Part shown: piece by piece, positions 2,351-15,781 of the stretch | Numbering within the stretch: the stretch's first letter is position 1 | Layout of the letters: every line of letters begins with the position of its first letter | Source of the DNA: Candidatus Woykebacteria bacterium RBG_13_40_15 | GTDB lineage: Bacteria > Patescibacteriota > Microgenomatia > Woykebacterales > RBG-16-39-9b | DNA: 64,000 nucleotides | NCBI GenBank assembly: GCA_001816655.1 | Contig: MHCP01000030.1 | Location: 5,623 to 69,622, forward strand | Reading direction: 5' to 3' | Program-made: the position numbers and the translations under genes | Notes under the pieces: generated by a model | Databases searched by the model: none | The model's input: only the letters and a program-made list of their open reading frames with translations | What the model was told of the DNA's origin: nothing

Positions 2351-2369
2351 TATTAAAACCTATTAATAC

Positions 2370-3713
2370 TTAAAAATTGTTTTGTTTATCTGCTGTGCTT
2401 AACTCTGGTAATTTATTTGAAATATAAATACTATAGATAATTACAGCAAGGGAGCCAAAAATTGTCGATATAAGAAAGGTCAACGCAGCCCCCACACTCC
2501 CCATTCTAGGTATTAAAAGCAGATTAAGACCAAAAACAAGCGCTAATTGAATATAGTTGGTCAAGGTAATATAAGCGTTTTTATGCAAACTAAATATAAC
2601 AAGGCTAATTGGGTTTGCGATTGTAGCAATCATATACGAAATTGTAAGAATAGCAAAAGACGGCACTGCCTGGGAATACTTTGCTCCAAATACAATAGAA
2701 ATAACATATGGCGCGAGAATAATTAAAGGTAGTAGCAAAACTACAAAAGCAACAGACAAGGAAAATGTTTTTTTTATGTAACTAAAAAATTTTTCTTTTG
2801 TTCTTTCAATTTTAGAAGCTTTCGGATAAAGCACACTTGTGATAGCGCTTATGAATAGTGGAAAGATTGTTGATAATTGAAATGCAGCACTGTATATTCC
2901 AACCTCGCTACTTTGCCTGAAGTGGGAAAGCATCAATATATCTAGCCTTCCAGCCAAACTAGTCGCAAAAAAGGACAGCATAATCCATTTACTAAAATGG
3001 AAAACTTCTGAAAAAACACTTCTTTGTTCCGCAGCAGTCGATTTATTATAAAGGTAATCTTTTTTAACTAGTAAAAGCCCAATAAAAAATCCCAGTAAAG
3101 GTACCAAAGCGTAAACCCACAAAGCGTTTATTAAAGTAAACTTAGCAATTAAAATGAGGCCTAATATTGATAGAAATCGGAAAGTATTTATAACTATAGG
3201 AAATAAACTAAGACGGGTAAATTGCTCGTAAGTCTGAAAGGCTGCGGGAATAAAAGCCCCAATTGATAGACCAAACCCGCCAATTATCGCTAACCTAAGA
3301 GGGAAAACTAATTGTCCCGGATTGCTTGGTGAAAGAAGATGAGAAAGTGGACCGACTAGTAACATTCCAACGATAAGAATCAATAAACCGATTATTAACT
3401 CAAGTTTGAAAATTAAATTAACAAAGATTTTTGCTTTGTGGCTATCCCGTTCAAGATTTAAATTAAAAAATCTTACCAAGCTACTGCCAAGACCAAAATC
3501 GGTAAAACCAGCTATCAATGTGGCTAATGCCGTTGCTAAAGAAAAGATTCCGAAGGAAGCAGGACCAAGTGTTCTAGAAATTACAGCGATCGTAAAGAAT
3601 GTCACAATAGCTGCCAAAATATTGCCTGAAAAAACCAGACCTGTGTTTACTGCTGTTCTCGAGAAAACCAGAGAATAAATTTTTGGAAAGTGGGACCTAA
3701 AAGTTTCAAGCAT
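2370..3713 (-). CDS. polysaccharide biosynthesis protein / Wzx-like flippase (MOP superfamily)
   Basis: The 447-aa product is polytopic with about 12 hydrophobic segments. It sits inside a glycosyltransferase and epimerase cluster. Confidence 0.7.
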   Translation of the reverse strand: MLETFRSHFPKIYSLVFSRTAVNTGLVFSGNILAAIVTFFTIAVISRTLGPASFGIFSLATALATLIAGFTDFGLGSSLVRFFNLNLERDSHKAKIFVNLIFKLELIIGLLILIVGMLLVGPLSHLLSPSNPGQLVFPLRLAIIGGFGLSIGAFIPAAFQTYEQFTRLSLFPIVINTFRFLSILGLILIAKFTLINALWVYALVPLLGFFIGLLLVKKDYLYNKSTAAEQRSVFSEVFHFSKWIMLSFFATSLAGRLDILMLSHFRQSSEVGIYSAAFQLSTIFPLFISAITSVLYPKASKIERTKEKFFSYIKKTFSLSVAFVVLLLPLIILAPYVISIVFGAKYSQAVPSFAILTISYMIATIANPISLVIFSLHKNAYITLTNYIQLALVFGLNLLLIPRMGSVGAALTFLISTIFGSLAVIIYSIYISNKLPELSTADKQNNF

Positions 3714-4857
3714 TGAATTTTTTTAAAATTACCTTAACAATTCTACCTGAAGCTTTACCATCACCATAGGGGTTTATTGCCTTTGCCATTTTTTGATAAA
3801 CAGTCTTATCTTTTAATAGTATGTTAGCCTCTTTTACAATTTTCTTTGGGTCTACTCCGATAAGCTTTGCCGTACCAGCGATAACACCCTCTGGTCGCTC
3901 TGTTGTACGACGCAATACAAGAACGGGTTTACCTAGTGCCGGCGCTTCCTCCTGCAAACCCCCTGAATCCGTCATTACAAAATAGACTTTCTTCAAAAGA
4001 GCTGACATATCTGGATAATCTAGTGGTTTAACTAGATAGACTCTCTTATTTTGACCTAATACCTTGTTAGCACTTTCTTTAATTTTTGGGTTTGGGTGAA
4101 CTGGAAATATTACTTCAACATCTGGATTTTTATCGACTACTTCTTTAATCGCCTTATGGATTTTCTCAATTGTTTCTCCCCAGTTTTCCCTTCTGTGCGT
4201 AGTAACCAAAATTACTTTTTTTCTGAAATCTACTTTATTTAATGACTTGTCTAAAAACTTCCTTTCTTTTTCCGTCGCCAAAAAAAGCGCATCGATAACA
4301 GTGTTACCCGTGACAAAAATATTTTCTTTGGGGTGGTTTTCTCGCAGCAAATTGTCTTTTGCGGTCTCTGTATGAGCAAAGTAAATATCACAAAGCACGT
4401 CAATAAGTTGGCGATTCATTTCCTCCGGAAAAGGATCGTATTTGTTGTAGGTACGCAAGCCCGCTTCAATATGAGCAATCGGAATTTTTTGGTAAAACGC
4501 TGCAGTAGCTGCTGAAAAAGCAGTAGGCGTATCTCCTTGTATCAAAACCAAATCTGGCTTTTCATATTCCAAAATTCGCTCCAGTTTATTAAGTATATCT
4601 ACAGAAATTGTCGTTAATGTTTGCTCGGGCATCATAACACCCAAATCGTAATCTGGCTTTATCTTAAAAAATTTCAAAACTTGATCCAAAAGTTCCCTAT
4701 GCTGCGCGGTGACCACTACTTTGTGTTCTACGACTTTCCCTTCAAGTTTTTTTATAACCGGAGCCATCTTTATAGCTTCTGGCCTAGTCCCAAAAATGCT
4801 AAGGATTTTAGCTTTTTTCATGGTTGTATTGGATTTTAACAGAAGCCCATTTAACAA
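3706..4857 (-). CDS. wecB: UDP-N-acetylglucosamine 2-epimerase (non-hydrolysing)
   Basis: The N-terminus KILSIFGTRPEAIKMAPVIKKL and the later HIEAGLRT and DSGGLQEE motifs are characteristic of WecB/MnaA. Confidence 0.85.
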   Translation of the reverse strand: MLNGLLLKSNTTMKKAKILSIFGTRPEAIKMAPVIKKLEGKVVEHKVVVTAQHRELLDQVLKFFKIKPDYDLGVMMPEQTLTTISVDILNKLERILEYEKPDLVLIQGDTPTAFSAATAAFYQKIPIAHIEAGLRTYNKYDPFPEEMNRQLIDVLCDIYFAHTETAKDNLLRENHPKENIFVTGNTVIDALFLATEKERKFLDKSLNKVDFRKKVILVTTHRRENWGETIEKIHKAIKEVVDKNPDVEVIFPVHPNPKIKESANKVLGQNKRVYLVKPLDYPDMSALLKKVYFVMTDSGGLQEEAPALGKPVLVLRRTTERPEGVIAGTAKLIGVDPKKIVKEANILLKDKTVYQKMAKAINPYGDGKASGRIVKVILKKFNA

Positions 4858-4916
4858 TCAACCAAGTTTAAAATAACTGTTGCAGATTTTTTACCGATAT
4901 CTTATAATTTTTATTC

Positions 4917-5156
4917 ATGAGGAACAAAGACTATCTCTCCATATTTACTTTAATACTTGCACTCTTGATCCTTTCAACCAAAGAGGCCTATGCTTACCTT
5001 GACCCTGGGACAGGCAGCTATATCCTCCAAATACTTATTGCTGGTATATTGGGTGGCCTAGTTGCTATTAGAGCCTTCTGGTCTAATATCAGAGATTTTG
5101 TAAAAGGTTTGTTTAAAAAAGACAAAAAATCTGCTCGCAAGAAAAATGGCAAGTAA
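4917..5156 (+). CDS. small membrane protein, hypothetical
   Basis: The 79-aa product has two hydrophobic segments and a lysine-rich C-tail. It overlaps the next ORF start by 11 nt. Support is weak. Confidence 0.35.
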   Translation: MRNKDYLSIFTLILALLILSTKEAYAYLDPGTGSYILQILIAGILGGLVAIRAFWSNIRDFVKGLFKKDKKSARKKNGK

Positions 5157-6534
5157 TCTAGCCTCATCCTCCTTCCGAGACCCATCTGGTTTTGTGTTTA
5201 AGAAGAACAATGTAATCTACCGACAAATAAGTAAGGATTATAAGGAAAACTATGACTATTTAATTAGCTCTGGTTTATACAAAAAGTTAGTTGACGAAGG
5301 TTTGCTGATTCCTCACAAAGAAGTTTCTGAAAATTACTCGCAAAAAGCAGACGCCTACAAAGTTATAAAACCAAAAGAAGTAAGTTTTATCTCTTACCCA
5401 TATGAATGGTGTTTTAGCCAACTGAAAGATGCAGCCCTACTTACATTAAAAATCCAACGGATTTCTCTTGATCACGGCATGTCCTTGAAAGACGCAAGTG
5501 CTTTTAATATACAATTTGTTGAGGGGAAGCCTGTTATAATCGATACTTTATCCTTCGAAAAATACCCTGAAGGGAAACCATGGGTGGCTTATAAACAGTT
5601 TTGCCAGCATTTTTTAGCCCCACTAGCTCTGATGTCTTATACAGATATAGGACTTAATAAATTAGCCCAAATTTATATTGACGGGGTACCTTTGGATCTA
5701 GCCTCAAAGCTGTTGCCTTTCAGATCAAAACTAAAACTAGCACTGTTAATTCATATACATTTGCATGCCGCAAGTCAAAAAAGATACGCTGATAAAAAAC
5801 TAAAAAGTGGTTCGCTTAATTTTAGTCGCAACTCCTTTATTGGTTTGGTAGATAGCCTAGAAAGCGCTATTAAAAATTTAAAATGGAAACCATCAGGTAC
5901 CGAATGGGCAGATTATTACCCTTCAAATAATAACTACGTTTCAGTCTCTTTAAAACAAAAGGGAAAACTCGTCAGCGATTTTCTAAAAATAGCTAAACCG
6001 AAAAACGTCTGGGACATTGGAGGAAACACTGGGCTATTTAGCCGAATTGCTTCCGATAAAGGAATCCAAACAATTTCTTTTGACATAGATCCTGCGGCAG
6101 TTGAACTAAACTACCAAGAAGTTGTAAGAAGAAATGAGCCTAATATTTTGCCGCTTGTAATTGATCTAACAAATCCCAGCCCAGCCATAGGTTGGGTAAA
6201 CAATGAAAGAGAGGCTTTTCTAGATCGCGGCCCTACGGACATGGCTCTGGCTCTCGCTCTTGTACATCATCTTGCTATTTCAAACAACGTACCTTTAGCT
6301 AATCTAGCTGAATTTTTTTCCGTACTTTGCAAAAGTATTATAATAGAATTTGTCCCAAAGGAAGACTCCCAAGTTAAGAAGCTACTTTCTACTAGGGAAG
6401 ATATTTTTCCTAATTACACGCAAAGTGATTTCGAAAAAGAATTTACTAAATTTTTCAAAATAAAAAAATCAGTACCTATAAAAGGCAGCCAAAGAGTCTT
6501 GTACTTAATGACCAATGGTAAAAAGGACAAGTAG
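5146..6534 (+). CDS. bifunctional-looking protein: N-terminal protein-kinase-like fold domain plus C-terminal class I SAM-dependent methyltransferase
   Basis: The C-terminal region has the methyltransferase motif VWDIGGNTGLFSRIA followed by an acidic FDIDP. The N-terminal half has a kinase-like catalytic pattern, LKDASAFN followed by VIID, which resembles the D-x4-N plus DFG-like Asp of phosphotransferases. Confidence 0.55.
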   Translation: MASNLASSSFRDPSGFVFKKNNVIYRQISKDYKENYDYLISSGLYKKLVDEGLLIPHKEVSENYSQKADAYKVIKPKEVSFISYPYEWCFSQLKDAALLTLKIQRISLDHGMSLKDASAFNIQFVEGKPVIIDTLSFEKYPEGKPWVAYKQFCQHFLAPLALMSYTDIGLNKLAQIYIDGVPLDLASKLLPFRSKLKLALLIHIHLHAASQKRYADKKLKSGSLNFSRNSFIGLVDSLESAIKNLKWKPSGTEWADYYPSNNNYVSVSLKQKGKLVSDFLKIAKPKNVWDIGGNTGLFSRIASDKGIQTISFDIDPAAVELNYQEVVRRNEPNILPLVIDLTNPSPAIGWVNNEREAFLDRGPTDMALALALVHHLAISNNVPLANLAEFFSVLCKSIIIEFVPKEDSQVKKLLSTREDIFPNYTQSDFEKEFTKFFKIKKSVPIKGSQRVLYLMTNGKKDK

Positions 6535-8155
6535 GCTAAAAATCCCGAAAAAATATAATCAAGTTGTAAAAACTATACAAAATTCAGGGGCTAAAATTTT
6601 CTTATTTCCTTTTCACCCAATCTTATTTGCCATTTACCCAATATTGTTTTTATATAACCAGAACATAAAAGAAGTTTATTTATCCGAAACAATAATTCCC
6701 TTATCAATCTCATTAATCTCTGCCACAATTATTTTGGTGAGCTTTAATTTCGTCTTCAAGAGTATAAACAAGGCAGCTTTTTTTTCTTCTTTGTTCATAA
6801 TTATATTCTTTTCTCACGGCCATCTTCATAAATTAATTGGGGAAAGGCCCTTCTGGATCTGGTCTTTCAAAATAGGCGTGGACAAGACTTTATTTTTTGT
6901 TTGGGTTTTATTGCTCACCTCTACAATTTTTTTTCTTTTGAGAACAAGAAAGAAATTGTTGACATTTAAAATCACTTTAAATATTGTTGCTATCTTCCTT
7001 GTTTTAATACCCCTATCGAGTATTACTTTGTATGAATTGTCGTCTGGAAGAATCTTAAAGAGAGGCTATTCCGAAAAAACGGCAAAGGAGTTAACAGAAG
7101 ATAAAAGAAACCCCGCCGGTAAAAACCCTGACATATATTACTTAATATTTGATTCTTACGCTGGTAATGATACTATCGAAGGCCTTTATAAATATGATAA
7201 CAGTAGCTTTATGAACTTCCTAAAAGAAAGGGGATTTTATATAGCTACAAAAAGTAACGCAAATTATGCTAAATCATCTCTCTCCTTAGCCTCTTCTCTA
7301 AACATAATGTTCCTCAACGATTTAAGCCAGAGGGCGGGTAATAACTCAAGCGAAACCTTACTTTATCCTTTGATTGAAGACAACAAAGTGGTTTCGTTTT
7401 TAAAATCCGCAGGGTACAACTACTACCATGTAGGGTCTTGGTGGCCCCCCACAAGCAAAAATAGAAATGCGACAAAGAGTTATCAACCAAATGGTGTTTC
7501 ATATTCAGATAATTTTTCTTCTAGATTAATCGACACTACTGCCCTGCTCCCTATAATAAGAGTTCTTTTCCCAAATACTGTTTATTGGGATGATTGGGAA
7601 AGACATTACAAAATAGCTATATTTCAACTTAATACTCTTGAAACAGTAGTTAATAAAAGAGGGCCGAAATTTGTCTTTGCCCACGTCCTACTACCCCATG
7701 GGCCGTTTGTTTTTGGAAAAAATTGTGAATACGTATCAAGAGGGCAACTGGAAAAGAAACCGTCTCGAAATGGCTATTTAGATCAGTTGTCTTGCACTAA
7801 CAAAAAAATCGAGACCCTTGTCGATAAAATACTAGAAGTATCAAAAGAGCCGCCTATAATCATATTGCAAGCTGATGAGGGCGGACCATTCATTAAATAC
7901 AAAAATAATGGAAATAATTATAAGGATTTTAATGACGAGACCCTAAAAGAAAGATATCGGATCATAAACGCTTACTATCTCCCAGGTGTTAAGGATAATC
8001 ATTTGTATAGTACAATAACGCCGGTAAATTCTTTTCGTCTTATCTTTAATCTATATTTTGATAAAAAACTTGATCTTCTTCCAGATAAAAGCTACGCCTA
8101 TGAAAACCTTGACCATCTTTATAAATTTTTTGAGATAACTGAAAGGATAAACTAG
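6515..8155 (+). CDS. membrane-anchored protein with large extracytoplasmic domain, putative alkaline-phosphatase-superfamily (sulfatase/LtaS/EptA-like) enzyme; tandem paralog 1
   Basis: The N-terminus has about 5 TM segments. After it come PDIYYLIFDSYAGNDT, FVFAHVLLPHGPFVFG and IILQADEGGPF. It shares all of these motifs with the neighbouring paralog at 8251..9864. Confidence 0.4.
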   Translation: MVKRTSRLKIPKKYNQVVKTIQNSGAKIFLFPFHPILFAIYPILFLYNQNIKEVYLSETIIPLSISLISATIILVSFNFVFKSINKAAFFSSLFIIIFFSHGHLHKLIGERPFWIWSFKIGVDKTLFFVWVLLLTSTIFFLLRTRKKLLTFKITLNIVAIFLVLIPLSSITLYELSSGRILKRGYSEKTAKELTEDKRNPAGKNPDIYYLIFDSYAGNDTIEGLYKYDNSSFMNFLKERGFYIATKSNANYAKSSLSLASSLNIMFLNDLSQRAGNNSSETLLYPLIEDNKVVSFLKSAGYNYYHVGSWWPPTSKNRNATKSYQPNGVSYSDNFSSRLIDTTALLPIIRVLFPNTVYWDDWERHYKIAIFQLNTLETVVNKRGPKFVFAHVLLPHGPFVFGKNCEYVSRGQLEKKPSRNGYLDQLSCTNKKIETLVDKILEVSKEPPIIILQADEGGPFIKYKNNGNNYKDFNDETLKERYRIINAYYLPGVKDNHLYSTITPVNSFRLIFNLYFDKKLDLLPDKSYAYENLDHLYKFFEITERIN

Positions 8156-8250
8156 CTAAACCAAGACAGGTTTGAAGTAATCTCGCAACTTGTTTAGAAT
8201 AAAAATTCTTTATCAGTTTAAATATTAGCGACTTACCTAACTAGCAACAA

Positions 8251-9864
8251 ATGACAAGAACACAAAACAGGATTAAAACTTCGTACAATTATTCCCAAAT
8301 TTTAAAAGGCGCCCAGTCTTTTGGAAACAAAATTTTGTCTTTTCCTTTTCACCCATTTCTTTTCGCCCTATTTCCCATTTTGTTTTTCTATTCAATTAAT
8401 ATAAAGGAGGCTATTTTTAGTGAAGCGATTCCTGTTTTAGCAATATCGATTGTCGCAACTGCTGTTTTATTTGCAATCTTTAGTTTTAGTGTCAAGAACG
8501 TTCAAAAAAGTGCTATCCTGTTATCGACCATAATTTTAGAATTTTTTTCCTACGGCCACGCAAGCAAAGTGATTGGAACTATAAACTTCAAGCTATTTAT
8601 ATTCCCCATTGGTAACGACAAAATTCTTTTTAGTATCTGCGTCTTGGTACTTGCCGTAGTAATATATTTTTTGTTTGCCAAAAGACTCAGCTATTTTAAA
8701 GCTACGAGAGTATTAAATATCATTTCAATAATCCTTGTATCTATTTCACTTTTTAACATTATCTCTTATCACTTAAGTCAAAGGGATTTTAATCTTCCGA
8801 TACAAAAAACAAAAATACTTGGACAATCAACGGTTTCAAATAACAAACCAGACATCTACTATATTATTTTGGATAGGTATGCTGGCGAAAAAACATTAAA
8901 AAGTTACAATTACGACAATAGCGATTTTACAAATTATCTAACCAGCAAGGGCTTTTTTGTTACTGAAGAGAGTACCAGCAATTACCCAAGAACCTCACTT
9001 TCGCTTGCTTCATCACTGAATATGGATTTCGTTCAAAACCTGATAGGAGGGCGGAACAGAGACGCTTCCGGGGAAAATTTGATGTACCCACTTTTGCAGG
9101 ATAACACCGTAGAAAAATTTTTGAAATCTCAGGGTTATAAATATTTTCACTTTGGGTCGTGGTGGGAACCAACGAAAGTAAACAAAAATGCTGATAAAAA
9201 CTTTTATCTGGAAGCAACAAGCTTCATAAAGCCAGGCGAATTTACAAGTAAGTTTCTAAGTACCACAATGGCCGAACCAATTATCGAACTAGTGTCTCCG
9301 AAAACAATACTTGATGAACCAATGAACCACCGAAATCGAATTTATTTACAGTTTGAAAAGTTACCAACAGTTGTTTCCGAAAAAGGGCCAAAATTTGTTT
9401 TTGCCCACATTTTAATCCCACACCCACCATATGTTTTTGGAAAAAAATGCGAAGAAAAAACCCAAGAACAAGCTAAAAAAGAGACTGAGATGGAAAATTA
9501 CAAAGAACAATTAAGTTGCGCCAATATCAAGGTAAAAAAATTGGTGTATGAGATACTAAAAAAATCAAAAAATCCCCCAGTAATAATTTTGCAAGCAGAT
9601 GAAGGCCCATATCCAATCAAAAATGGCGGTAAAACAGCAGCAAGTAACGAATGGCTCAAGGAAAAATTTCCTATCTTAAATGCTTATTATCTAGCAGGGA
9701 AAAAAGTAGATATTCCAAATGATATTACCCCTGTTAACTCATTTCGGTTGGTATTCAATGTCTTTTTTGACACCAATTTAAAGTTTTTTCCCAACAAGAA
9801 CTATATGTACGAAAGTCTCAACCACCTTTATAGGCTCACCGAAGTTACTGATAAACTGAAGTAA
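8251..9864 (+). CDS. membrane-anchored putative sulfatase-like protein; tandem paralog 2
   Basis: It has the same architecture and the motifs PDIYYIILDRYAGEKT, FVFAHILIPHPPYVFG, VIILQADEGPYP and TPVNSFRLVFNVFFD. It is collinear with the 6515..8155 paralog. Confidence 0.4.
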   Translation: MTRTQNRIKTSYNYSQILKGAQSFGNKILSFPFHPFLFALFPILFFYSINIKEAIFSEAIPVLAISIVATAVLFAIFSFSVKNVQKSAILLSTIILEFFSYGHASKVIGTINFKLFIFPIGNDKILFSICVLVLAVVIYFLFAKRLSYFKATRVLNIISIILVSISLFNIISYHLSQRDFNLPIQKTKILGQSTVSNNKPDIYYIILDRYAGEKTLKSYNYDNSDFTNYLTSKGFFVTEESTSNYPRTSLSLASSLNMDFVQNLIGGRNRDASGENLMYPLLQDNTVEKFLKSQGYKYFHFGSWWEPTKVNKNADKNFYLEATSFIKPGEFTSKFLSTTMAEPIIELVSPKTILDEPMNHRNRIYLQFEKLPTVVSEKGPKFVFAHILIPHPPYVFGKKCEEKTQEQAKKETEMENYKEQLSCANIKVKKLVYEILKKSKNPPVIILQADEGPYPIKNGGKTAASNEWLKEKFPILNAYYLAGKKVDIPNDITPVNSFRLVFNVFFDTNLKFFPNKNYMYESLNHLYRLTEVTDKLK

Positions 9865-9878
9865 ATAAAAAATTTAGC

Positions 9879-10750
9879 TTATTTTAAAACGAGAGCTTTT
9901 GCGATATCCCAACCAATCCAATAAGCATAATTAGATTTGTAGAAAGGCAGAGAAGAACCTAAAGGATGGATGCCTCCCAAACCATCCAAAACATAGCCAC
10001 CAGTACCATCAGTATTTAGACTGATTGACCTAGCAATATCTCTGCCGGGCCAGTAAGAATGAATAGAAATTGAAGGCGCCGCCCCAAAATTATGGACTCC
10101 ACCGTAACCGTCTAAAATATAACCCCCGCCTCCTGGCACTAAGACTACATCTCTAGCAATATCCCAAAGGGGCCAATAAGCGTGGGTGTTGTGAGCAATT
10201 GGAGTTGCCGAACCGAAAGCGTGCAAACCACCCCAACCGTCGAGAATGTAGCCTCCAGTATCATTTGTGTTCAACACGACTGCATTCACAATATCCCATT
10301 TCGGCCAGTAGGCATGCGAAGAATTAGGTATTGTCGGCGCTCCTCCAAAGGCGTGCAACCCACCCCAACCGTCAAGGATGTAGCCTTTTGGTGAAGAAGG
10401 TGTTGAGGATGAGAGTAGAATAACATCCCGTGCAATATCCCATTTCGGCCAGTAGGCATGGGTATTGTGAGCAATTGGAGTTGCCGAACCGAAAGCATGC
10501 AAACCACCCCAGCCATCCAGAACATAGCCCCCGCTATGATCTGGAAGTAACGCAATAGACCGTGCTATATCCCATGGCCATCTATTTCCGTTATCTGCCT
10601 TTGAAGCTGTACCAAATTCATGCACTCCCCCTCTCCCATCAAGTATGTATCCACCTATGTACAAATAATTTATTGCTGACAGTGGGTTTATCCTCCCATA
10701 ACCAAAATTCGCATCGAAACCAGAACTACCTAAATCAGTAGCCGTAGAGC
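9879..10750. repeat. tandem ~120-bp coding repeats (seven copies) forming the C-terminal repeat domain of the 1017-aa protein
   Basis: Near-identical DNA units recur, for example around 10155-10230 and 10428-10500. They produce the periodic small ORFs on both strands in the ORF track. Confidence 0.8.
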
Positions 10751-12932
10751 GCATTATGGCTTCTATATTTCCAGGGGTAGCATCTCCAAACCTTTCCGTC
10801 ATCAAGGAGGCTGTTGCCGCAACTACTGCTGAAGCAATTGAAGTGCCTGCAACAGTACCATAACTAAAGTTGGTACAGACCCTTCCAGACGTACATGTAA
10901 GTTTTTGATAAATTAGATCTTGGGTTCCTCCATATCCAGTACCACCAGGCGCCATCAAATCAAGATCTTTTCCATAGCTTGAATAATAAGCTCTAGTGCT
11001 TGTTTTCGTTAGAGCTCCCACCGCAGTTACAAGATTTCCCCTAGCTGGGTATGAAAGGTTACTTGAAGCACCATTCCCAGCTGCCGCAGAGATAAAATTA
11101 CCAGACAACCAAGCAGAATTTATTACTGCTTGAATTACTTCCGAATAATCGTCACCAACAATGGATAGGTTGATTACCTTTGAACCGTTTGCCTTAGCAA
11201 AATCAATACCTGATGCAACATCGCTATCAATACACCAACCTGAAGAATCGCAAACTTTCACCGGCATAATTGAAATGTTATATGCAAGTGAAGCTGAACC
11301 CAAAGCGTTATTTGTGCTTTCTGCTATCACAGAGGCTACAATTGTCCCATGGCCATTATCATCATTTGGATGAGAGTCGTGATTCACAAAATCATAACCA
11401 AGAACAAAATTTGTATGCACAAAGTCGGGTCCTTTAGCATAGTTTTCGCTACCTGCCGGATCATAATTTTCGTAAGCAACACCACTGTCAAGTACCGCAA
11501 CTTTAACTGAAGGGTTGCCACCAGAAGTGTCTTTCCAAACATTTAAAGCGTCCAGTTTTACTAAATCCCATTGCGATAAATAATTCGGATCATTAGGAAG
11601 TGTACTTCCATCAGATGGAAATGTAGCAATCTTTCGAATGTAGTTTGGAGCCACTGTCCCATAATGGCCATATCGACGTAACAGATCCTCGACAGTTGTA
11701 TCATTCCCTATATCTATTCGCTGCAAGCCAGACGCGTTCCTAAAAACAATTTGCTGAGGTAAGAAGTGCGCTAGAGATATCAGAGAGGGGGTAAACTTGT
11801 TTAAGTACGTTCCAGCGCAAGCAGTATTTGCAACCCGGCCATGAACAAACACCGCCGGTAAAGCAAAGCCATCTCTACCAAAGACAGAAATCTCATCGGG
11901 ATCAATATTATGTGAATAGAGCTTCCAAACAACAATTTTGTGTAGGGCATTTTGCACCCTCTTATTCGGGCCAACGTAGCGGAAATCTCCTAAAACAGCT
12001 ACCCCCACGCTACCGCTATTGTAACCACTAGTATGAGCTCCAATTACCCCATCACCTCCCCTTCTACCTTCATAAATAGTACCGTTATTTTGATCAATAA
12101 CAAAGTTGTAGCCTATATCTCCCCAACCCCTAACAACATTATGGTAATAATAAATTGCTCGTACCGTAGACACTGGATCTGGATCATTATTGGAAGTAAC
12201 CGTATGATGGATAATTATTTTTTTAATCGGCGCGTAGTCTTCGCCGGGAACATAAATTGACTCATCGGCTCCCCAGCAAGTTCTAGAACAAATAGCTGGA
12301 GCATCTGTTGGCCTTTTTGGTGCATCATATGCAGCAAAGACTTTTTCAAGGCTAATCTTTAGCTTTTTCAAAATTTTTTCTAGTAAACTTATTTTTTCTT
12401 TGCTATCAATATAAGTAAGGTTGAGCTTTTTCACTTCTGGAATTTTGTTAATATCCGTTGTTTTTAACACTACTTGTTCCTGAAAAAACTTTCCTTCTAG
12501 GGTTATTAATCGTCCGTACTTTTTGTTCGATAGTTCGTAATCTGAACCATCATCATCCACCTCTATCTCTTTCCACTCTGTCCAGATTTTTCCGTCTTTA
12601 CTTGTCCTCACTTGAATGTGTATTTCTGCACCTTTGGGAAGCGCGACTTCCCAGGAAGAAGATAATGCATTAAAAGAAAAGGGAGATGTTTTTACTTGAC
12701 CAATTTTTTTAACCTCGATTGGAGCAGCTTGTCCAAGCACAAAGTGATTGTTTTTGGAAGACAGCTCCTTTGCGAAAAGTTTTAACGTATCAGTTTTGGT
12801 TACTGAAGTAATGAAATGGCCTGCTCTTACTTTAACTGGTTTTTGGGGATTATAAAAAGCAACCAGAAGACCGAAGAAAACAAGTAGAACTAATAGAATT
12901 AGTACAGAAAAGACTTTTATTCTCACCTTCAC
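9879..12932 (-). CDS. secreted/anchored multidomain cell-wall hydrolase: N-acetylmuramoyl-L-alanine amidase (PGRP/Amidase_2) + subtilisin-like S8 peptidase + seven C-terminal ~40-aa tandem repeats
   Basis: It has an N-terminal signal/anchor, FSVLILLVLLVFFGLLVAF. The amidase_2 signature is GWGDIGYNFVIDQNNGTIYEGRRGG and GAHTSGYNSGSVGVAVLG. The S8 triad contexts are VAVLDSGVAY (Asp), NGHGTIVASVIA (His) and GTSIASAVVAATASL (Ser). There are seven repeats of the form GGYILDGWGGLHAFG...YWPKWDIARDVVL. Confidence 0.85.
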   Translation of the reverse strand: MKVRIKVFSVLILLVLLVFFGLLVAFYNPQKPVKVRAGHFITSVTKTDTLKLFAKELSSKNNHFVLGQAAPIEVKKIGQVKTSPFSFNALSSSWEVALPKGAEIHIQVRTSKDGKIWTEWKEIEVDDDGSDYELSNKKYGRLITLEGKFFQEQVVLKTTDINKIPEVKKLNLTYIDSKEKISLLEKILKKLKISLEKVFAAYDAPKRPTDAPAICSRTCWGADESIYVPGEDYAPIKKIIIHHTVTSNNDPDPVSTVRAIYYYHNVVRGWGDIGYNFVIDQNNGTIYEGRRGGDGVIGAHTSGYNSGSVGVAVLGDFRYVGPNKRVQNALHKIVVWKLYSHNIDPDEISVFGRDGFALPAVFVHGRVANTACAGTYLNKFTPSLISLAHFLPQQIVFRNASGLQRIDIGNDTTVEDLLRRYGHYGTVAPNYIRKIATFPSDGSTLPNDPNYLSQWDLVKLDALNVWKDTSGGNPSVKVAVLDSGVAYENYDPAGSENYAKGPDFVHTNFVLGYDFVNHDSHPNDDNGHGTIVASVIAESTNNALGSASLAYNISIMPVKVCDSSGWCIDSDVASGIDFAKANGSKVINLSIVGDDYSEVIQAVINSAWLSGNFISAAAGNGASSNLSYPARGNLVTAVGALTKTSTRAYYSSYGKDLDLMAPGGTGYGGTQDLIYQKLTCTSGRVCTNFSYGTVAGTSIASAVVAATASLMTERFGDATPGNIEAIMRSTATDLGSSGFDANFGYGRINPLSAINYLYIGGYILDGRGGVHEFGTASKADNGNRWPWDIARSIALLPDHSGGYVLDGWGGLHAFGSATPIAHNTHAYWPKWDIARDVILLSSSTPSSPKGYILDGWGGLHAFGGAPTIPNSSHAYWPKWDIVNAVVLNTNDTGGYILDGWGGLHAFGSATPIAHNTHAYWPLWDIARDVVLVPGGGGYILDGYGGVHNFGAAPSISIHSYWPGRDIARSISLNTDGTGGYVLDGLGGIHPLGSSLPFYKSNYAYWIGWDIAKALVLK

Positions 12933-12964
12933 AGCATCTGCCTCAAGAAAATTTTATCACACTT

Positions 12965-14767
12965 TTACTTAACAGTAACGGATTTTGCTAGGTTTCTCGG
13001 TTTGTCTGGATCGGCTTTTCTCTCTAGGGCTAAAAAGTACGCTAAAAGTTGGGCGACAACTATCTGCGAGATACAAGAAGCACTTCCTGCATCTTTTACT
13101 GGCAACCAATAATCGAATACCTGATTTTTCTTTGGTGATACTCCAATAATAAAACCGCCTCTACTTTTAATCTCAGTAGCCCCGGAGATTATCGAATCAT
13201 ATGTTTCATCGAACGGTGCAAACACAATTACAGGAGTACCCTTTTCAATCAAGGCAATAGCCCCATGTTTCAATTCTCCACCAGCAAATCCTTCCGCATG
13301 AATGTAACTTACTTCCTTTATTTTTAATGCTGCTTCAAGAGCTGTGGGGTAATTCAAACCTCGACCTATTGTGTAAATATGGTCGTGGGAAGAAATTTTC
13401 TTAGCTAATTTTTTTACATTTTCGACATATTTTTTCCTTAAGATTTCTTCGATTGATTCACTTGCCTTTGCAACTTGCTTCATACCGCTTACCACATCAT
13501 CTGCTAAAGCCGACGCTAATATGGCAAGTATTGCTAACTTCGAGACGTAGCTTTTTGTCGCACATACGGATTTTTCTGGTCCTGCCCCTAAAAGGATTTT
13601 ATAATCAGAATTCCGATACAAAGTTGAACCAAGATTGTTCACTAAACTAGCAATTTTAGCTCCTCTTTTCTTTGCCTCCATTACAGAATCAATAATATCT
13701 ATCGTTTCGCCTGATTGAGATAGGGCAATAACCAAACTTCTTGGAGTCAAAAAATTAGTTAGGTAAATAAATTCGCTCCCAAAGGAAAAATTAACATGTC
13801 GCGAAGCTATTTTTGAAAATAAGTAACTGCCGGCTAATGCTGCGTGAGCCGCAGTACCACAACCAATTATGTAAGTCCCGTAAGAACTCTTAACAACCCC
13901 TGAAAGAGCCAAAATCGCGTCTTTATAATTTCTGACAATATGGGAAAGAACTTTCGGTTGCTCATAAATTTCCTTAAGCATGTAGTGTGCATATTTACCA
14001 AGACTGGAGGAGCCTATTGACCATTCCAAATGGGTTGGCTCTCTGTTAATTACTTGCCCCGAATTCAAATCGTATAATTTTATACCCTCACTGTTAATCA
14101 ATGCGCCCTGGTTGTCTTCAAGAAAAATCACTTCTTTCGTGTACGGTAGGATTGCTACTGCATCTGAAGAAACCAAATATTCCTCTTTCCCTAAGCCCAG
14201 GCAAAGAGGAGAACCGGTTTTGGCAAGCACAATTTCGTTATTCGGTGAAAGTAATGCTACTGCGTTTAAACCAGTTAATTTTTTAAAAGAGTGCCTAAAG
14301 GCTTCAAATAACAGAGGACCACTATCCTTAGAGTTTGAATTCGTTTTTTTAATTTCATCCTCAACCAAATGATTAACCACTTCTGTATCGGTCTCTGATT
14401 TAAAGCGATGCCCCTTTTTTAGTAACGCTTTTTTTAATTCAGTGTAATTTTCAATTATGCCATTATGAACCAACGCATATTTATCATTACAATCAGTGTG
14501 AGGATGGGCGTTTTCATCTGTAACACCACCGTGAGTTGCCCACCTAGTATGCCCCAGGGCTGCTACGAATGAATTTCGAACGGGAGTTGAATTTATAGTT
14601 TTTACATTGGATATTTTGCCAACTGCTTTTTTTACAACTATTTTATCGTTCTCAAGCCAAGCAAAGCCCCAACTGTCATACCCCCGATACTCCAAAGTCT
14701 TGAGCCCCTCCAAAACTGCCTTAGGGGCACTTGTTTTCTTTCCGACATAGCCAAAAATGCCGCACAT
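12965..14767 (-). CDS. glmS: glutamine--fructose-6-phosphate aminotransferase (isomerising)
   Basis: The N-terminal MCGIFGYVG has the Cys2 nucleophile. The product is 600 aa with two SIS-domain regions and ends in KSVTVK. Confidence 0.9.
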   Translation of the reverse strand: MCGIFGYVGKKTSAPKAVLEGLKTLEYRGYDSWGFAWLENDKIVVKKAVGKISNVKTINSTPVRNSFVAALGHTRWATHGGVTDENAHPHTDCNDKYALVHNGIIENYTELKKALLKKGHRFKSETDTEVVNHLVEDEIKKTNSNSKDSGPLLFEAFRHSFKKLTGLNAVALLSPNNEIVLAKTGSPLCLGLGKEEYLVSSDAVAILPYTKEVIFLEDNQGALINSEGIKLYDLNSGQVINREPTHLEWSIGSSSLGKYAHYMLKEIYEQPKVLSHIVRNYKDAILALSGVVKSSYGTYIIGCGTAAHAALAGSYLFSKIASRHVNFSFGSEFIYLTNFLTPRSLVIALSQSGETIDIIDSVMEAKKRGAKIASLVNNLGSTLYRNSDYKILLGAGPEKSVCATKSYVSKLAILAILASALADDVVSGMKQVAKASESIEEILRKKYVENVKKLAKKISSHDHIYTIGRGLNYPTALEAALKIKEVSYIHAEGFAGGELKHGAIALIEKGTPVIVFAPFDETYDSIISGATEIKSRGGFIIGVSPKKNQVFDYWLPVKDAGSASCISQIVVAQLLAYFLALERKADPDKPRNLAKSVTVK

Positions 14768-14770
14768 AAA

Positions 14771-15781
14771 TTATTTTCTGGAAGCTATATTAATAATTAA
14801 CCTTGCAAGTTTTCCTTCATCGTGCCGAATTAACGTACCTTGAATTACCAAATCTTTTACTAAGATATTTTTTGCCATTTTTTCACATTCAGCCAAGTCC
14901 GACTCAACTGGGAAAGCAAGCTCTTTAGAGTATCTTTTTAATATTTTTTCTGGAAAACTACTCTTATTCAGAATTGCGTAATCAATGCTTCCGTCTTCCA
15001 AGTAATTATGGATCTCCCGGATAAAATCACTAGCCTTAAAATTGTCTGATTCTCCATGCTTGGTCATTAAATTGCAGGCGTATACTTTTTTTGCTTTTGA
15101 GAAATTGATCGCCTCAGCAATACCATCTACCAAGAGATTTGGAATAATGCTTGTATACAGATCTCCTGGTCCTAAAACTACAATATCTGCCTTTGCAATC
15201 TCTTCAATTGCAGGAGCATAAGCGTAGGCTTTAGGATCAAGATAAACATAGTCTATTGGAATATTAACTTTCTCTTTTCTCACATCTATGTTCGTCTCCC
15301 CAACAATTTCACTACCGTCTTCAAGTCTTGCAACTAAATTGGAACTTGTTAGCGTTACAGGCATCACTTTTCCTTTAATACCAAGAATCCGCCCTGCTTG
15401 AGCAATCGCTTTGTCAGCACCACCAGTTACCTCGGTAAGAGCAGTTAAAAATAGGTTTCCAAAAGAATGCCCCTCTAATCCTTCGCCTTTAGCAAAACGG
15501 TAATTGAAGAGCTGACGCAAAATTAATAAGGATCGATCATCGTTTGTCAAAGCAACCAGAGCCTGCCGACTATCTCCAGGTGGCAAGTGCCCAAATTCGT
15601 CCCGCAATCTACCCGAGGAACCCCCCGAATCCATCATTGTCACAATTGCAGTTATATTGTCAGTGTATTTCTTTAAACCACGTAAAAGGCCGTGAATTCC
15701 CGTACCACCACCAATTACTACAATATGAGGATCAGAATTTTTATTTGAAGAAGAGGGTGTATTTTTTCGTTTTTGTGCCAT
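14771..15781 (-). CDS. YvcK/UPF0052 family (CofD-like) gluconeogenesis-factor-like protein
   Basis: IVVIGGGTGIHGLLRGLKKYTDNITAIVTMMDSGGSSGRLRDEFGHLPPGDSRQALVAL matches the CofD/YvcK family signature. Confidence 0.8.
   Translation of the reverse strand: MAQKRKNTPSSSNKNSDPHIVVIGGGTGIHGLLRGLKKYTDNITAIVTMMDSGGSSGRLRDEFGHLPPGDSRQALVALTNDDRSLLILRQLFNYRFAKGEGLEGHSFGNLFLTALTEVTGGADKAIAQAGRILGIKGKVMPVTLTSSNLVARLEDGSEIVGETNIDVRKEKVNIPIDYVYLDPKAYAYAPAIEEIAKADIVVLGPGDLYTSIIPNLLVDGIAEAINFSKAKKVYACNLMTKHGESDNFKASDFIREIHNYLEDGSIDYAILNKSSFPEKILKRYSKELAFPVESDLAECEKMAKNILVKDLVIQGTLIRHDEGKLARLIINIASRK

What the first reader, a model, noticed from the sequence alone, without database searches (positions are those of the whole stretch)
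9879..12932. Giant secreted PGRP-type amidase and S8 protease fusion with a seven-repeat C-terminal domain that is recently duplicated at the DNA level
A single polypeptide combines a peptidoglycan amidase (Amidase_2), a subtilisin-like protease with an intact D/H/S triad, and seven tandem repeats of about 40 aa of the form GGYILDGWGGLHAFG...AYWPKWDIARDVVL. The repeat count and the recurring W-D/G-G-h-H pattern suggest a seven-bladed beta-propeller or a binding module. Two repeat units are nearly identical at the nucleotide level at about 10155-10230 and 10428-10500, so the array is evolving by recent duplication. A combined murein-cleaving and proteolytic surface enzyme would suit an organism that attacks or remodels a host cell wall.
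Basis: partly seen in the sequence, partly recalled or inferred. Interest (0 to 1): 0.6.

Follow-up and report, generated by a model that had tools for sequence, protein, structure and literature searches.

The report
Wall amidase–protease with six-bladed anchor
This gene from an uncultured Candidatus Woykebacteria bacterium encodes a membrane-anchored enzyme that joins a peptidoglycan amidase to a subtilisin-type protease and ends in a six-bladed (not seven-bladed) beta-propeller from an unannotated family, which most likely holds surface proteins on the cell wall.

Summary
The ORF is real (9879-12932, minus strand, 1017 aa). It is identical to a deposited "hypothetical protein" of Candidatus Woykebacteria RBG_13_40_15. 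Amidase_2 (PGRP/T7-lysozyme type) and Peptidase_S8 (thermitase-like) are both confirmed, and every catalytic residue is invariant in 22 S8-bearing homologues.

There are six repeats, not seven. There is also no recent duplication: blades 2 and 4 are 82% identical over the 114-nt blade core, and only a 54-nt patch is 51/54 identical. That patch is a lineage-specific gene-conversion tract from blade 4 into blade 2. The nearest homologue with this module has the same six blades, one to one.

The repeats are predicted with high confidence (pLDDT 94) to form a six-bladed beta-propeller. The family has no Pfam model and no PDB relative. It comprises about 1,900 clusters at 50% identity, mostly in Dormibacterota, Chloroflexota and Actinomycetota, and is attached to CHAP, CAP, M23, cohesin, GH9 and other exoprotein domains.

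Homologues of this enzyme carry SLH domains, other repeats or nothing in the same position. Every locus examined sits in a wall-polysaccharide gene cluster, and the SLH variant lies near a CsaB-type pyruvyltransferase gene. The best reading is an interchangeable, non-covalent cell-wall anchor. This is a new variant of a known kind, of moderate interest.

The parts
9879..12932 (-). Whole ORF, 1017 aa plus stop. Identical to NCBI 'hypothetical protein A2172_02945', Candidatus Woykebacteria bacterium RBG_13_40_15.
   Evidence: P0121, 100% identity
12855..12929 (-). N-terminal hydrophobic helix (aa 2-26). Read as a signal anchor or transmembrane segment. It is conserved in the homologues.
   Evidence: AF2 helix 2-26; N-termini of homologues
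12405..12827 (-). N-terminal mostly-beta domain (aa 36-176) with no Pfam model. It travels with Amidase_2 in many Chloroflexota and Actinomycetota amidases.
11772..12236 (-). Amidase_2 (PGRP/T7-lysozyme type) zinc N-acetylmuramoyl-L-alanine amidase domain, aa 233-387. Key residues: H243, Y275, H364, T370, C372.
11640..11765 (-). Small beta-beta-alpha-beta domain (aa 390-431). It is homologous by position to the fervidolysin-type subtilase prodomain of distant homologues, but 20 aa shorter here.
11598..11636 (-). Low-confidence linker (aa 433-445) just before the PNDPNY motif that aligns to the start of the thermitase chain. Inferred autoprocessing region.
   Evidence: pLDDT 40-49; alignment to thermitase residue 3
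10665..11597 (-). Peptidase_S8 (thermitase-like subtilase) catalytic domain, aa 446-756. Key residues: D482, H528, N620, S698.
9882..10664 (-). Predicted six-bladed beta-propeller, aa 757-1017. Blades: 10530-10652, 10386-10529, 10254-10385, 10125-10253, 9999-10124, 9882-9998.
   Evidence: (pLDDT 94, pTM 0.91)
10182..10235 (-). Gene-conversion tract, donor copy in blade 4 (codons 7-24 of the blade).
   Evidence: 51/54 identical to 10458-10511
10458..10511 (-). Gene-conversion tract, recipient copy in blade 2.
   Evidence: Over this stretch it is closer to blade 4 of the homologue (72%) than to the homologue's blade 2 (57%).
12965..15781 (-). Upstream co-directional genes: cofD/yvcK-like (14771-15781) and glmS (12965-14767), separated by gaps of 3 and 32 bp. 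Probable operon partners.
336..9864 (.). Adjacent wall-polysaccharide genes: GT2, GT4, Polysacc_synt flippase, UDP-GlcNAc 2-epimerase, a methyltransferase-like gene, and two LtaS/sulfatase-like membrane proteins.
   Evidence: The same set is present at the propeller-bearing homologue's locus L079.

Best explanation
This is a membrane-anchored, extracytoplasmic, bifunctional cell-envelope hydrolase of a CPR bacterium (Candidatus Woykebacteria).

Shown:
- Domain order is: N-terminal transmembrane anchor; a beta-rich domain; a PGRP-type zinc amidase with all catalytic residues; a shortened subtilase prodomain-like mini-domain; a thermitase-like S8 protease with an intact triad; and a predicted six-bladed beta-propeller.
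- Both active sites are invariant across 22 homologues that share 38-66% identity over the amidase-S8 core.
- The gene always lies in a wall-polysaccharide or peptidoglycan-precursor locus.
- The C-terminal module is interchangeable among homologues: propeller, SLH, two other repeat types, or none.
- The propeller belongs to an unannotated family that is attached to many different exoprotein domains.

Inferred:
- The propeller is a non-covalent cell-wall anchor. It probably binds a secondary wall polysaccharide through the repeated aromatic and His motif of each blade, and so does the job that SLH does in a sister homologue.
- The amidase removes stem peptides from the glycan, while the protease trims stem peptides or surface proteins during wall remodelling.
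- More speculatively, subtilase autoprocessing at the aa 433-445 linker would split the protein. The amidase half would stay on the membrane anchor and the protease half would be kept at the surface by the C-terminal anchor.
- The DNA similarity between blades 2 and 4 is a roughly 54-nt intragenic gene-conversion tract, not a copy-number change.

Structure:
- Propeller-only model: pLDDT 94, pTM 0.91, 18 strands, three per repeat.
- Full-length model: pLDDT 87.5 with the domain boundaries given above.
- All Foldseek matches with E below 0.001 are beta-propellers. The best TM-scores (0.58-0.59) are to entries for the LRP2 ectodomain.

The propeller family:
- No Pfam hit even at E of 10 or less, and no PDB sequence hit with the family profile at E of 1 or less.
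- 1,923 clusters at 50% identity.
- 520 genomic hits. The best 80 are mostly from Dormibacterota, Chloroflexota and Acidimicrobiia/Actinomycetota, often with several copies per contig.
- Partner domains: CHAP about 20, CAP about 18, M23, Amidase_2, GH18, C39-like, TIG, fn3, S8, cohesin, GH9, Big_1 and Kelch. No member seen carries another wall anchor such as SLH or LysM.

Anchor role:
- The two closest relatives (59% and 53% identity) are cohesin-plus-propeller proteins. One is flanked by seven dockerin-bearing genes, which is the layout of an anchoring scaffoldin, with the propeller where SLH usually sits.
- Homologues swap the C-terminal module.
- Six loci all lie in wall-polysaccharide clusters whose content changes with the module. 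The SLH variant lies four genes upstream of a PS_pyruv_trans (CsaB-type) gene, and CsaB-dependent pyruvylation makes the SLH ligand (PMC6030368). Both propeller variants share a cluster with WecB/MnaA, LtaS-like proteins and a flippase.

Prodomain:
- PF22148 hits the equivalent segment in four distant homologues.
- The linker has low pLDDT, and the thermitase chain start aligns just after it.

Gene conversion:
- The chance of 51/54 matches at the background identity of 70% is about 1e-5.
Against: - No binding or enzymatic data exist, and the organism is uncultured.
- The link between module type and polysaccharide locus rests on only six loci.
- The prodomain-like segment of this protein does not itself hit any prodomain model. 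Two relatives that lack the S8 domain (P0134, P0135) still keep the segment, so it may not act as a classical prodomain and autoprocessing may not occur.
- I could not inspect model coordinates, so ring closure, blade geometry and the position of the conserved aromatic residues are not verified.
- Some partner domains (GH9, GH18) would also fit a carbohydrate-substrate-binding role.
Confidence: 0.6

Rival explanations
1. Host-attack enzyme. The CPR cell uses the amidase-protease pair to breach the wall of a host or prey bacterium. The C-terminal module is then a host-wall targeting domain, analogous to the cell-wall-binding domain of a phage endolysin, and is swapped to match different hosts. 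The propeller would have been borrowed from the phyla that use it on their own walls.
For: - CPR bacteria are commonly episymbionts (general knowledge).
- The module is swapped between close homologues in the way endolysin binding domains are.
- The bulk of the propeller family lies in Dormibacterota, Chloroflexota and Actinomycetota, which could be hosts.
- Two lytic activities sit on one chain.
Against: - The N-terminal membrane anchor is conserved, so the enzyme starts out tethered to the producer.
- The gene is fixed inside the producer's own wall-polysaccharide and glmS locus, and the module type tracks that locus, including the SLH and CsaB-like pairing.
- The closest propeller relatives are cohesin scaffoldin-like proteins on low-GC contigs (44% GC; L080 has tetranucleotide r 0.87 to the Woykebacteria-like locus L079). 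This implies self-surface display.
- GC3 of the module (0.37) is within about 1.6 SD of the window's genes, so there is no sign of recent acquisition.
Confidence: 0.2
2. The propeller is a carbohydrate-binding (lectin or CBM-like) module for external polysaccharide substrates rather than a wall anchor.
For: - Some family members carry GH9 or GH18 catalytic domains.
- The repeated Trp/Tyr/His motif in every blade resembles the multivalent sites of propeller lectins (my own knowledge, not tested here).
Against: - Most identified partners are peptidoglycan hydrolases or non-glycosidase surface domains: CHAP, CAP, M23, cohesin, Ig-like.
- In homologues the same position is occupied by SLH, a known wall anchor.
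Confidence: 0.12
3. The propeller is an integral regulatory or substrate-gating domain of the protease, like the propeller of prolyl oligopeptidases or the P-domain of kexins.
For: It follows the S8 domain directly without a long linker.
Against: - About a quarter of the homologues lack any C-terminal module, and others have unrelated modules, while the protease core is conserved.
- The same propeller is fused to many unrelated domains.
Confidence: 0.05
4. The repeat array is an assembly artefact or a recently expanded tandem duplication with variable copy number.
For: A 54-nt patch is 94% identical between two blades.
Against: - Blades are only 48-75% identical at the DNA level overall, and no tandem repeat is detected.
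- An independent assembly has the same six blades in one-to-one correspondence, including blade-specific linkers and indels.
- 83 of 122 family proteins show six blades. The rest show 4, 5 or 7 HMM-detected blades. At least one of the three 7-blade counts (P0001) is a blade split between the two ends of the domain, and many of the sequences come from short contigs.
Confidence: 0.03

Closest known systems
Staphylococcal bifunctional autolysins Atl/AtlE (amidase, wall-binding repeats, glucosaminidase)
   Same: A single secreted polypeptide joins an Amidase_2-type MurNAc-L-Ala amidase, a second hydrolase and a repeat module that targets the wall. Atl is proteolytically processed into separate enzymes, and the same is inferred here. 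This comparison rests on my own knowledge.
   Different: The second activity here is a subtilase, not a glycosidase. The repeats form a C-terminal beta-propeller rather than internal GW/SH3b-like repeats. This protein has an N-terminal membrane anchor.
Cell-envelope subtilases of monoderm bacteria (B. subtilis WprA, lactococcal PrtP, streptococcal ScpA)
   Same: An S8 protease is kept at the cell surface by an extra module, and it has a prodomain N-terminal to the catalytic domain. The catalytic domain is thermitase-like.
   Different: Those enzymes are not fused to a peptidoglycan amidase and use LPXTG or other anchors. Here the prodomain is shortened and lies internal to the chain.
SLH-domain trimer binding pyruvylated secondary cell-wall polymer (CsaB-dependent)
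   Same: Functional analogue. It is a terminal module of about 170-270 aa, shared by many different exoproteins of one organism. An SLH module occupies the same position in homologue P0128, whose locus also encodes a CsaB-type pyruvyltransferase (PMC6030368).
   Different: There is no sequence or fold relationship: SLH is helical. The ligand of the propeller is unknown.
Cellulosome anchoring scaffoldins (cohesin plus SLH)
   Same: The closest relatives of this propeller are cohesin-plus-propeller proteins, one of which sits among dockerin-bearing genes.
   Different: The anchor is a propeller rather than SLH or a sortase signal. The protein in this window has no cohesin.
Drosophila PGRP-LB / T7 lysozyme amidases
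   Same: PGRP-LB is the best solved relative of the amidase domain (E 8.5e-19). The His/His/Cys zinc site with H-x7-C spacing, the catalytic Tyr and the Thr two residues before the Cys are all conserved.
   Different: Those are single-domain soluble proteins. Here the domain is embedded in a five-domain membrane-anchored protein.
Beta-propeller lectins (tachylectin-2, PVL, AAL/RSL) and YWTD/YVTN propellers
   Same: Predicted multi-bladed propeller with one repeated aromatic motif per blade. Foldseek assigns the fold with probability 1.0, with best TM-scores of 0.58-0.59 to LRP2 ectodomain entries.
   Different: There is no sequence similarity to any Pfam propeller repeat. TM-scores are too low for a specific relationship. 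DSSP finds only three regular strands per repeat. The lectin comparison comes from memory and was not tested.

Membership tests
Amidase_2 (PF01510; PGRP/T7-lysozyme zinc amidases) | Profile HMM score above the curated cut-off | tested here: met
   50.9 bits against a cut-off of 26, aa 233-365.
Amidase_2 (PF01510; PGRP/T7-lysozyme zinc amidases) | Zinc ligands His, His and Cys, plus the catalytic Tyr | tested here: met
   H242/H243, Y275, H364 and C372 are present and invariant in 26 homologues. The first half aligns to PGRP-LB. The H-x7-C spacing equals that of T7 lysozyme H122/C130; that comparison rests on my own knowledge.
Amidase_2 (PF01510; PGRP/T7-lysozyme zinc amidases) | MurNAc-L-alanine amidase activity | not testable with these tools
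   Needs a biochemical assay.
Peptidase_S8 (subtilases, thermitase-like S8A) | Profile HMM score above the curated cut-off | tested here: met
   146.9 bits against a cut-off of 21.8, aa 475-746. The best PDB matches are AK.1 protease and thermitase, E 1e-30 to 1e-31.
Peptidase_S8 (subtilases, thermitase-like S8A) | Asp-His-Ser triad in that order, plus the oxyanion Asn, aligned to a solved subtilase | tested here: met
   D482, H528, N620 and S698 fall in the conserved D-T/S-G, H-G-T, G-N and G-T-S motifs shared with thermitase in the alignment. They are invariant in 22 homologues.
Peptidase_S8 (subtilases, thermitase-like S8A) | N-terminal prodomain (I9 or fervidolysin type) that is autoprocessed | tested here: inconclusive
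   The segment of this protein has no Pfam hit. PF22148 hits the equivalent segment in four distant homologues (E 1.5e-6 to 0.03). The segment here is 20 aa shorter and is predicted as beta-beta-alpha-beta.
Mycosin (TIGR03921), dentilisin PrtP and other named S8 equivalogs | Score above the NCBIfam equivalog cut-off | tested here: not met
   132 bits against 278.75 for mycosin; 63.6 against 300 for PrtP.
Known beta-propeller repeat families in Pfam (WD40, Kelch, YVTN, NHL, FG-GAP, PQQ, SBBP and others) | Sequence match to a repeat or propeller model | tested here: not met
   No propeller family matches at E of 10 or less for aa 755-1017. No Pfam family was precomputed on this region in the 120 listed relatives.
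Beta-propeller fold (structural class) | Closed ring of beta-sheet blades | tested here: inconclusive
SLH / LysM / CW_binding / SH3b wall-binding modules | Sequence match to the module | tested here: not met
   No Pfam hits. The resemblance is functional only, based on positional replacement by SLH in P0128.
Recent tandem DNA duplication | High nucleotide identity across whole units, and variable copy number between relatives | tested here: not met
   TRF finds nothing. Unit-to-unit DNA identity is 48-75%. Only a 54-nt tract reaches 94%. The homologue has the same six blades.

The most novel reading that the evidence does not exclude
The C-terminal modules of this amidase-protease family (the unannotated six-bladed propeller, SLH, and two other unannotated repeat types) may be a swappable targeting cassette. 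It would let different Woykebacteria aim a two-activity lytic enzyme at the walls of particular host phyla. The propeller would then be a new class of wall-glycopolymer lectin, with three regular strands per blade, borrowed from Dormibacterota, Chloroflexota or Actinomycetota. In effect, an episymbiont would be using the logic of a phage endolysin to determine host range.
Probability: 0.15. Interest if true: 0.75.

Novelty: new variant of a known kind. Interest (0 to 1): 0.45.

Why it matters
Little is known about how CPR bacteria, Dormibacterota and many Chloroflexota and Actinomycetota hold enzymes on their surfaces.

This locus points to a family of about 1,900 sequence clusters with no database model and no solved relative. 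In this family a predicted six-bladed propeller takes the place that SLH domains occupy elsewhere, both in peptidoglycan hydrolases and in cohesin scaffoldin-like proteins.

If the family is confirmed as a wall-polymer anchor, three things follow:
- It would add a new non-covalent surface-display system.
- It would allow better annotation of the many proteins now named only after their N-terminal domain or called hypothetical.
- It would provide a handle, in the form of a fluorescent propeller fusion, for labelling or capturing uncultured cells.

The conserved amidase-subtilase fusion, which sits in the wall-polysaccharide locus and carries cassette-like C-terminal modules, is also a tidy system for studying how an enzyme's anchor co-evolves with the wall polymer.

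Tried and rejected
- Tandem Repeats Finder on 9700-13100 found nothing, so the repeats are protein-level only.
- Pfam and NCBIfam searches on the repeat region and on the N-terminal 230 aa gave no meaningful hits.
- A profile search of the family against PDB sequences gave no hits.
- Foldseek against PDB and BFVD returned only generic propellers with TM-scores of 0.59 or lower, so no specific structural relative was found.
- Full-text searches for the LDGWGG-type motif, for CPR amidase/subtilisin fusions and for propeller cell-wall-binding domains found nothing relevant.
- The raised GC of the gene (44-47%) looked at first like horizontal transfer. I rejected this: GC3 is 0.37 against 0.33 +/- 0.024 for the window's genes, so the excess comes from the Gly/Trp/Ala/Pro-rich composition.
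- The promoter and terminator scan was no better than shuffled sequence.
- The cluster-member look-up gave organism names for only two relatives, both Dormibacteraeota.
- I considered mycosin or dentilisin membership and rejected it because the scores fall below the cut-offs.
Full report
**What is in the sequence**

- A single ORF runs from 12932 to 9879 on the minus strand. It has a GTG start with GAGG 9 nt upstream and encodes 1017 aa.
- The product is identical to a deposited protein, [quoted passage not shown]. The window therefore comes from a CPR/Patescibacteria genome with 39% GC.
- Pfam finds Amidase_2 at aa 233-365 (50.9 bits, cut-off 26) and Peptidase_S8 at aa 475-746 (146.9 bits, cut-off 21.8).
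- NCBIfam gives only sub-threshold S8 hits, for example mycosin at 132 bits against a cut-off of 278.75.

**Active sites**

- The best solved relatives of the amidase domain are animal PGRPs, headed by the catalytic Drosophila PGRP-LB (E 8.5e-19).
- The amidase motifs are IIIHHT (H242/H243), DIGYNF (Y275) and VHGRVANTAC (H364, T370, C372). The H-x7-C spacing is that of the zinc site of T7 lysozyme and the PGRPs (my own knowledge).
- The S8 domain aligns end to end with AK.1 protease and thermitase (E 1e-30 to 1e-31). D482, H528, N620 and S698 sit in the catalytic motifs.
- In an alignment of homologues, all ten of these residues are invariant in the 22 proteins that carry the S8 domain, at 38-66% identity over the amidase-S8 core.

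**Domain map**

A full-length AlphaFold model (60-sequence alignment, mean pLDDT 87.5) gives this layout:

| Residues | Feature |
|---|---|
| 2-26 | Helix, read as a transmembrane or signal anchor; conserved in homologues |
| 36-176 | Mostly-beta domain with no Pfam model |
| 183-199 | Helix |
| 233-387 | Amidase |
| 390-431 | Small beta-beta-alpha-beta unit |
| 433-443 | Linker, the lowest-confidence segment (block means 40-49 for aa 431-450) |
| 446-756 | Subtilase |
| 757-1017 | Repeat domain |

- In more distant homologues (P0141-P0144) the segment between amidase and protease is 20 aa longer. It matches the fervidolysin N-terminal prodomain model PF22148 (E 1.5e-6 to 0.03). The segment in this protein gives no hit.
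- The PNDPNY motif that follows the linker aligns to residue 3 of the thermitase chain.
- I therefore read aa 390-431 as a shortened subtilase prodomain and aa 433-445 as a possible autoprocessing site. This is inference.
- One point counts against it: two relatives without an S8 domain (P0134, P0135) still keep the segment.

**The repeats**

- There are six, not seven, starting at aa 761, 802, 850, 894, 937 and 979.
- A blade HMM finds exactly six in this protein and none elsewhere in the window.
- With a 43-sequence alignment, AlphaFold models aa 755-1017 at pLDDT 94 and pTM 0.91, with 18 strands, three per repeat.
- Every Foldseek hit in PDB with E below 0.001 is a beta-propeller. TM-scores are only 0.4-0.59, with the best to LRP2 ectodomain entries. 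The viral structure library gave the same picture.
- No Pfam model matches even at E of 10 or less. The family profile finds no PDB chain at E of 1 or less.

**Recent duplication?**

No.

- Tandem Repeats Finder finds nothing.
- Pairwise DNA identity between blades is 48-75%.
The similarity is concentrated in one 54-nt patch, 10182-10235 against 10458-10511, which matches 51/54. The flanks are at the background level of 69-72%. The chance of 51/54 at 70% background is about 1e-5.
- The one homologue in the set that also carries this module (P0129, an independent Logan assembly, locus L079) has six blades that pair one to one with these, including blade-specific linkers and a 2-aa deletion in blade 5.
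- In that homologue, blades 2 and 4 are only 70% identical over the patch. Blade 2 of this protein is closer over the patch to the homologue's blade 4 (72%) than to its blade 2 (57%).
- This is the signature of a short intragenic gene conversion from blade 4 into blade 2 in this lineage. Three substitutions have accumulated since.
- Copy number is fixed. Among 122 family proteins, 83 show six blades by HMM, 35 show five, 3 show seven and 1 shows four. At least one of the seven-blade counts (P0001) is a blade split across the two ends of the domain.

**The propeller family**

- A word-indexed search found 640 relatives.
- An exhaustive profile search of 1.84 billion representatives found 1,923 clusters at E of 1e-3 or less, and 883 at E of 1e-30 or less. 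Some proteins match in four or five separate stretches and may carry two propellers.
- A scan of GTDB species genomes found 520 loci. The best 80 are mostly from Dormibacterota, Chloroflexota and Acidimicrobiia/other Actinomycetota, at 68-73% GC in the four loci checked, often with several copies on one contig. One cultured organism is among them, Salinilacustrithrix flava.
- The module is usually at the C-terminus of proteins with N-terminal hydrophobic leaders.
- Its partner domains are very diverse: CHAP (about 20 of the 120 best hits), CAP (about 18), M23, Amidase_2, GH18, C39-like, TIG, fn3, ASH, S8, cohesin, GH9 with Ig domains, Big_1/invasin and Kelch. None carries SLH, LysM or another known wall anchor.
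- Public annotations name these proteins only after their N-terminal domain, or call them hypothetical.

**What the module does: context evidence**

1. The two closest relatives of this propeller (59% and 53% identity) are cohesin-plus-propeller proteins. They lie on low-GC contigs (44%). One of these loci, L080, has tetranucleotide r 0.87 to the Woykebacteria-like locus L079. In L080 the gene is flanked by seven genes carrying C-terminal dockerins. Cohesin plus a surface anchor is the architecture of cellulosome anchoring scaffoldins, where the anchor is normally SLH (my own knowledge).
2. Homologues of the amidase-S8 core (58-66% identity) carry different C-terminal modules:
   - a repeat of about 55 aa of the form PDGTL...G.KRWI (ten proteins);
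   - an FG-GAP-like repeat (three proteins);
   - SLH domains (P0128);
   - nothing at all (six proteins of about 769 aa).

   Only P0129 shares the propeller.
3. In all six loci examined, the gene sits inside a wall-polysaccharide or peptidoglycan-precursor cluster, and the content of the cluster changes with the module:

| Locus | C-terminal module | Neighbouring genes |
|---|---|---|
| Window and L079 | Propeller | CofD/YvcK, GlmS, UDP-GlcNAc 2-epimerase, LtaS/sulfatase-like membrane proteins, Polysacc_synt flippase, glycosyltransferases |
| L083 | PDGTL repeats | RmlABCD, ABC2/Wzt exporter |
| L084 | SLH | RmlCBD, NeuB, a CMP-sugar synthetase, a PS_pyruv_trans (CsaB-type) gene four genes downstream, flippase |
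| L085 | None | GT4s and a TagF-like gene |
| L086 | FG-GAP-like | RmlABCD, UDP-glucose dehydrogenase |

SLH trimers bind pyruvylated secondary wall polymer made by CsaB (PMC6030368), and a UDP-GlcNAc 2-epimerase supplies ManNAc for such polymers (PMC11464976). The pairing of SLH with a CsaB-like gene is therefore what self-anchoring predicts.

Together these observations make a non-covalent anchor to the producer's own wall polymer the best-supported function for the propeller. The support is six loci, and there are no experiments.

**How the whole protein probably works**

- Shown: an N-terminal membrane anchor, two intact hydrolase sites under strong purifying selection, an interchangeable C-terminal module, and a gene arrangement compatible with an operon. 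The cofD-like gene, glmS and this gene lie on the same strand with gaps of 3 and 32 bp. The promoter scan was not informative.
- Inferred: an extracytoplasmic wall-remodelling enzyme. The amidase strips stem peptides from the glycan. The subtilase degrades peptides or surface proteins, or processes other wall enzymes.
- Inferred: if the subtilase autoprocesses at aa 433-445, the amidase half stays on the membrane and the protease half is retained by the C-terminal anchor. This would explain why an anchor sits at the far end of a protein that already has a membrane anchor.

**Rival readings**

- A host-attack role remains possible, and I give it about 0.2. CPR lifestyles and the endolysin-like module swapping favour it. 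The membrane tether, the fixed position in the cell's own envelope locus, the link between module and locus, and the cohesin scaffoldin relatives argue against it.
- A role in binding external polysaccharide substrates, a role in gating the protease, and an assembly artefact are each less likely, for the reasons given under the rivals.

**Composition**

The gene's raised GC (41-47% in the three C-terminal domains against 38% for neighbouring genes) comes from amino-acid content. GC3 of the propeller is 0.37 against 0.33 +/- 0.024 for the window's genes. There is no sign of recent transfer.

**Comparison with known systems and novelty**

- In function the protein resembles bifunctional autolysins such as staphylococcal Atl, and wall-associated subtilases such as WprA or PrtP.
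- By sequence it is a member of Amidase_2 and Peptidase_S8. It is not a member of any named S8 equivalog.
- Its C-terminal domain belongs to no described repeat or wall-binding family.
- I found no paper describing the fusion or the propeller.
- I rate it a new variant of a known kind, namely a modular wall hydrolase with a non-covalent anchor. Its main value is that it exposes a sizeable, unannotated anchor-like propeller family, together with cassette-like anchor exchange that is linked to the wall-polysaccharide locus.
- Interest: 0.45.

Noticed in passing
Homologues P0122-P0124, P0126, P0127, P0130, P0131, P0137, P0141, P0142 (C-terminal ~260 aa); locus L083 7001-10042: A second repeat family with no Pfam match fills the C-terminal position in most homologues. 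It has four to five units of about 55 aa of the form PDGTL(v/i)k...vY(l/v)i..G.KR.I.s..vF...gy.w..v..vs...l..yp.G. It is probably another wall-binding module.
   Followed up: partly
L080 1-16308 (Logan SRR22452306 contig, 65 kb, GC 44%): The cohesin-plus-propeller gene (P0001, 8001-9335) lies in a run of nine same-strand genes; seven of its neighbours carry C-terminal Dockerin_1 domains (with GSDH, Peptidase_M11, Big_7 or fn3). This is a cellulosome-like surface display system in a low-GC, possibly CPR, genome.
   Followed up: partly
P0134 (595 aa) and P0135 (674 aa): These relatives have lost the S8 catalytic domain but keep the amidase and the short prodomain-like segment, followed directly by FG-GAP repeats. 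The 'prodomain' may therefore have a role of its own.
   Followed up: no
window 6515-8155 and 8251-9864 (+): Two tandem paralogous membrane proteins (546 and 537 aa) each have a C-terminal sulfatase/LtaS-like domain. They converge on the 3' end of the amidase-S8 gene with a 14-bp gap. A homologue is present at the propeller-bearing locus L079, so they may be polymer transferases for the wall polymer.
   Followed up: partly
P0133, P0137: Homologues of this bacterial amidase-S8 protein are labelled in NCBI as Candidatus Pacearchaeota or Nanoarchaeia archaeon. This is either misbinning of CPR contigs or transfer into DPANN archaea.
   Followed up: no
Precomputed Pfam lists (e.g. P0134, P0141, P0149): Accession PF27503.1 recurs in Amidase_2 proteins but is absent from the local Pfam copy, so I could not establish what it is. 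It is not listed for this protein or for any propeller-family hit.
   Followed up: no
window 17773-19002 (-): A 409-aa ORF within the envelope gene cluster has no Pfam match at E of 0.001 or less.
   Followed up: no
aa 673-694 of the ORF (window ~10851-10916): Relative to thermitase, the subtilase has an insertion before the catalytic Ser (LIYQKLTCTSGRVCTNFSYG) that contains two Cys residues. It could form a disulfide-stabilised loop near the active site.
   Followed up: no
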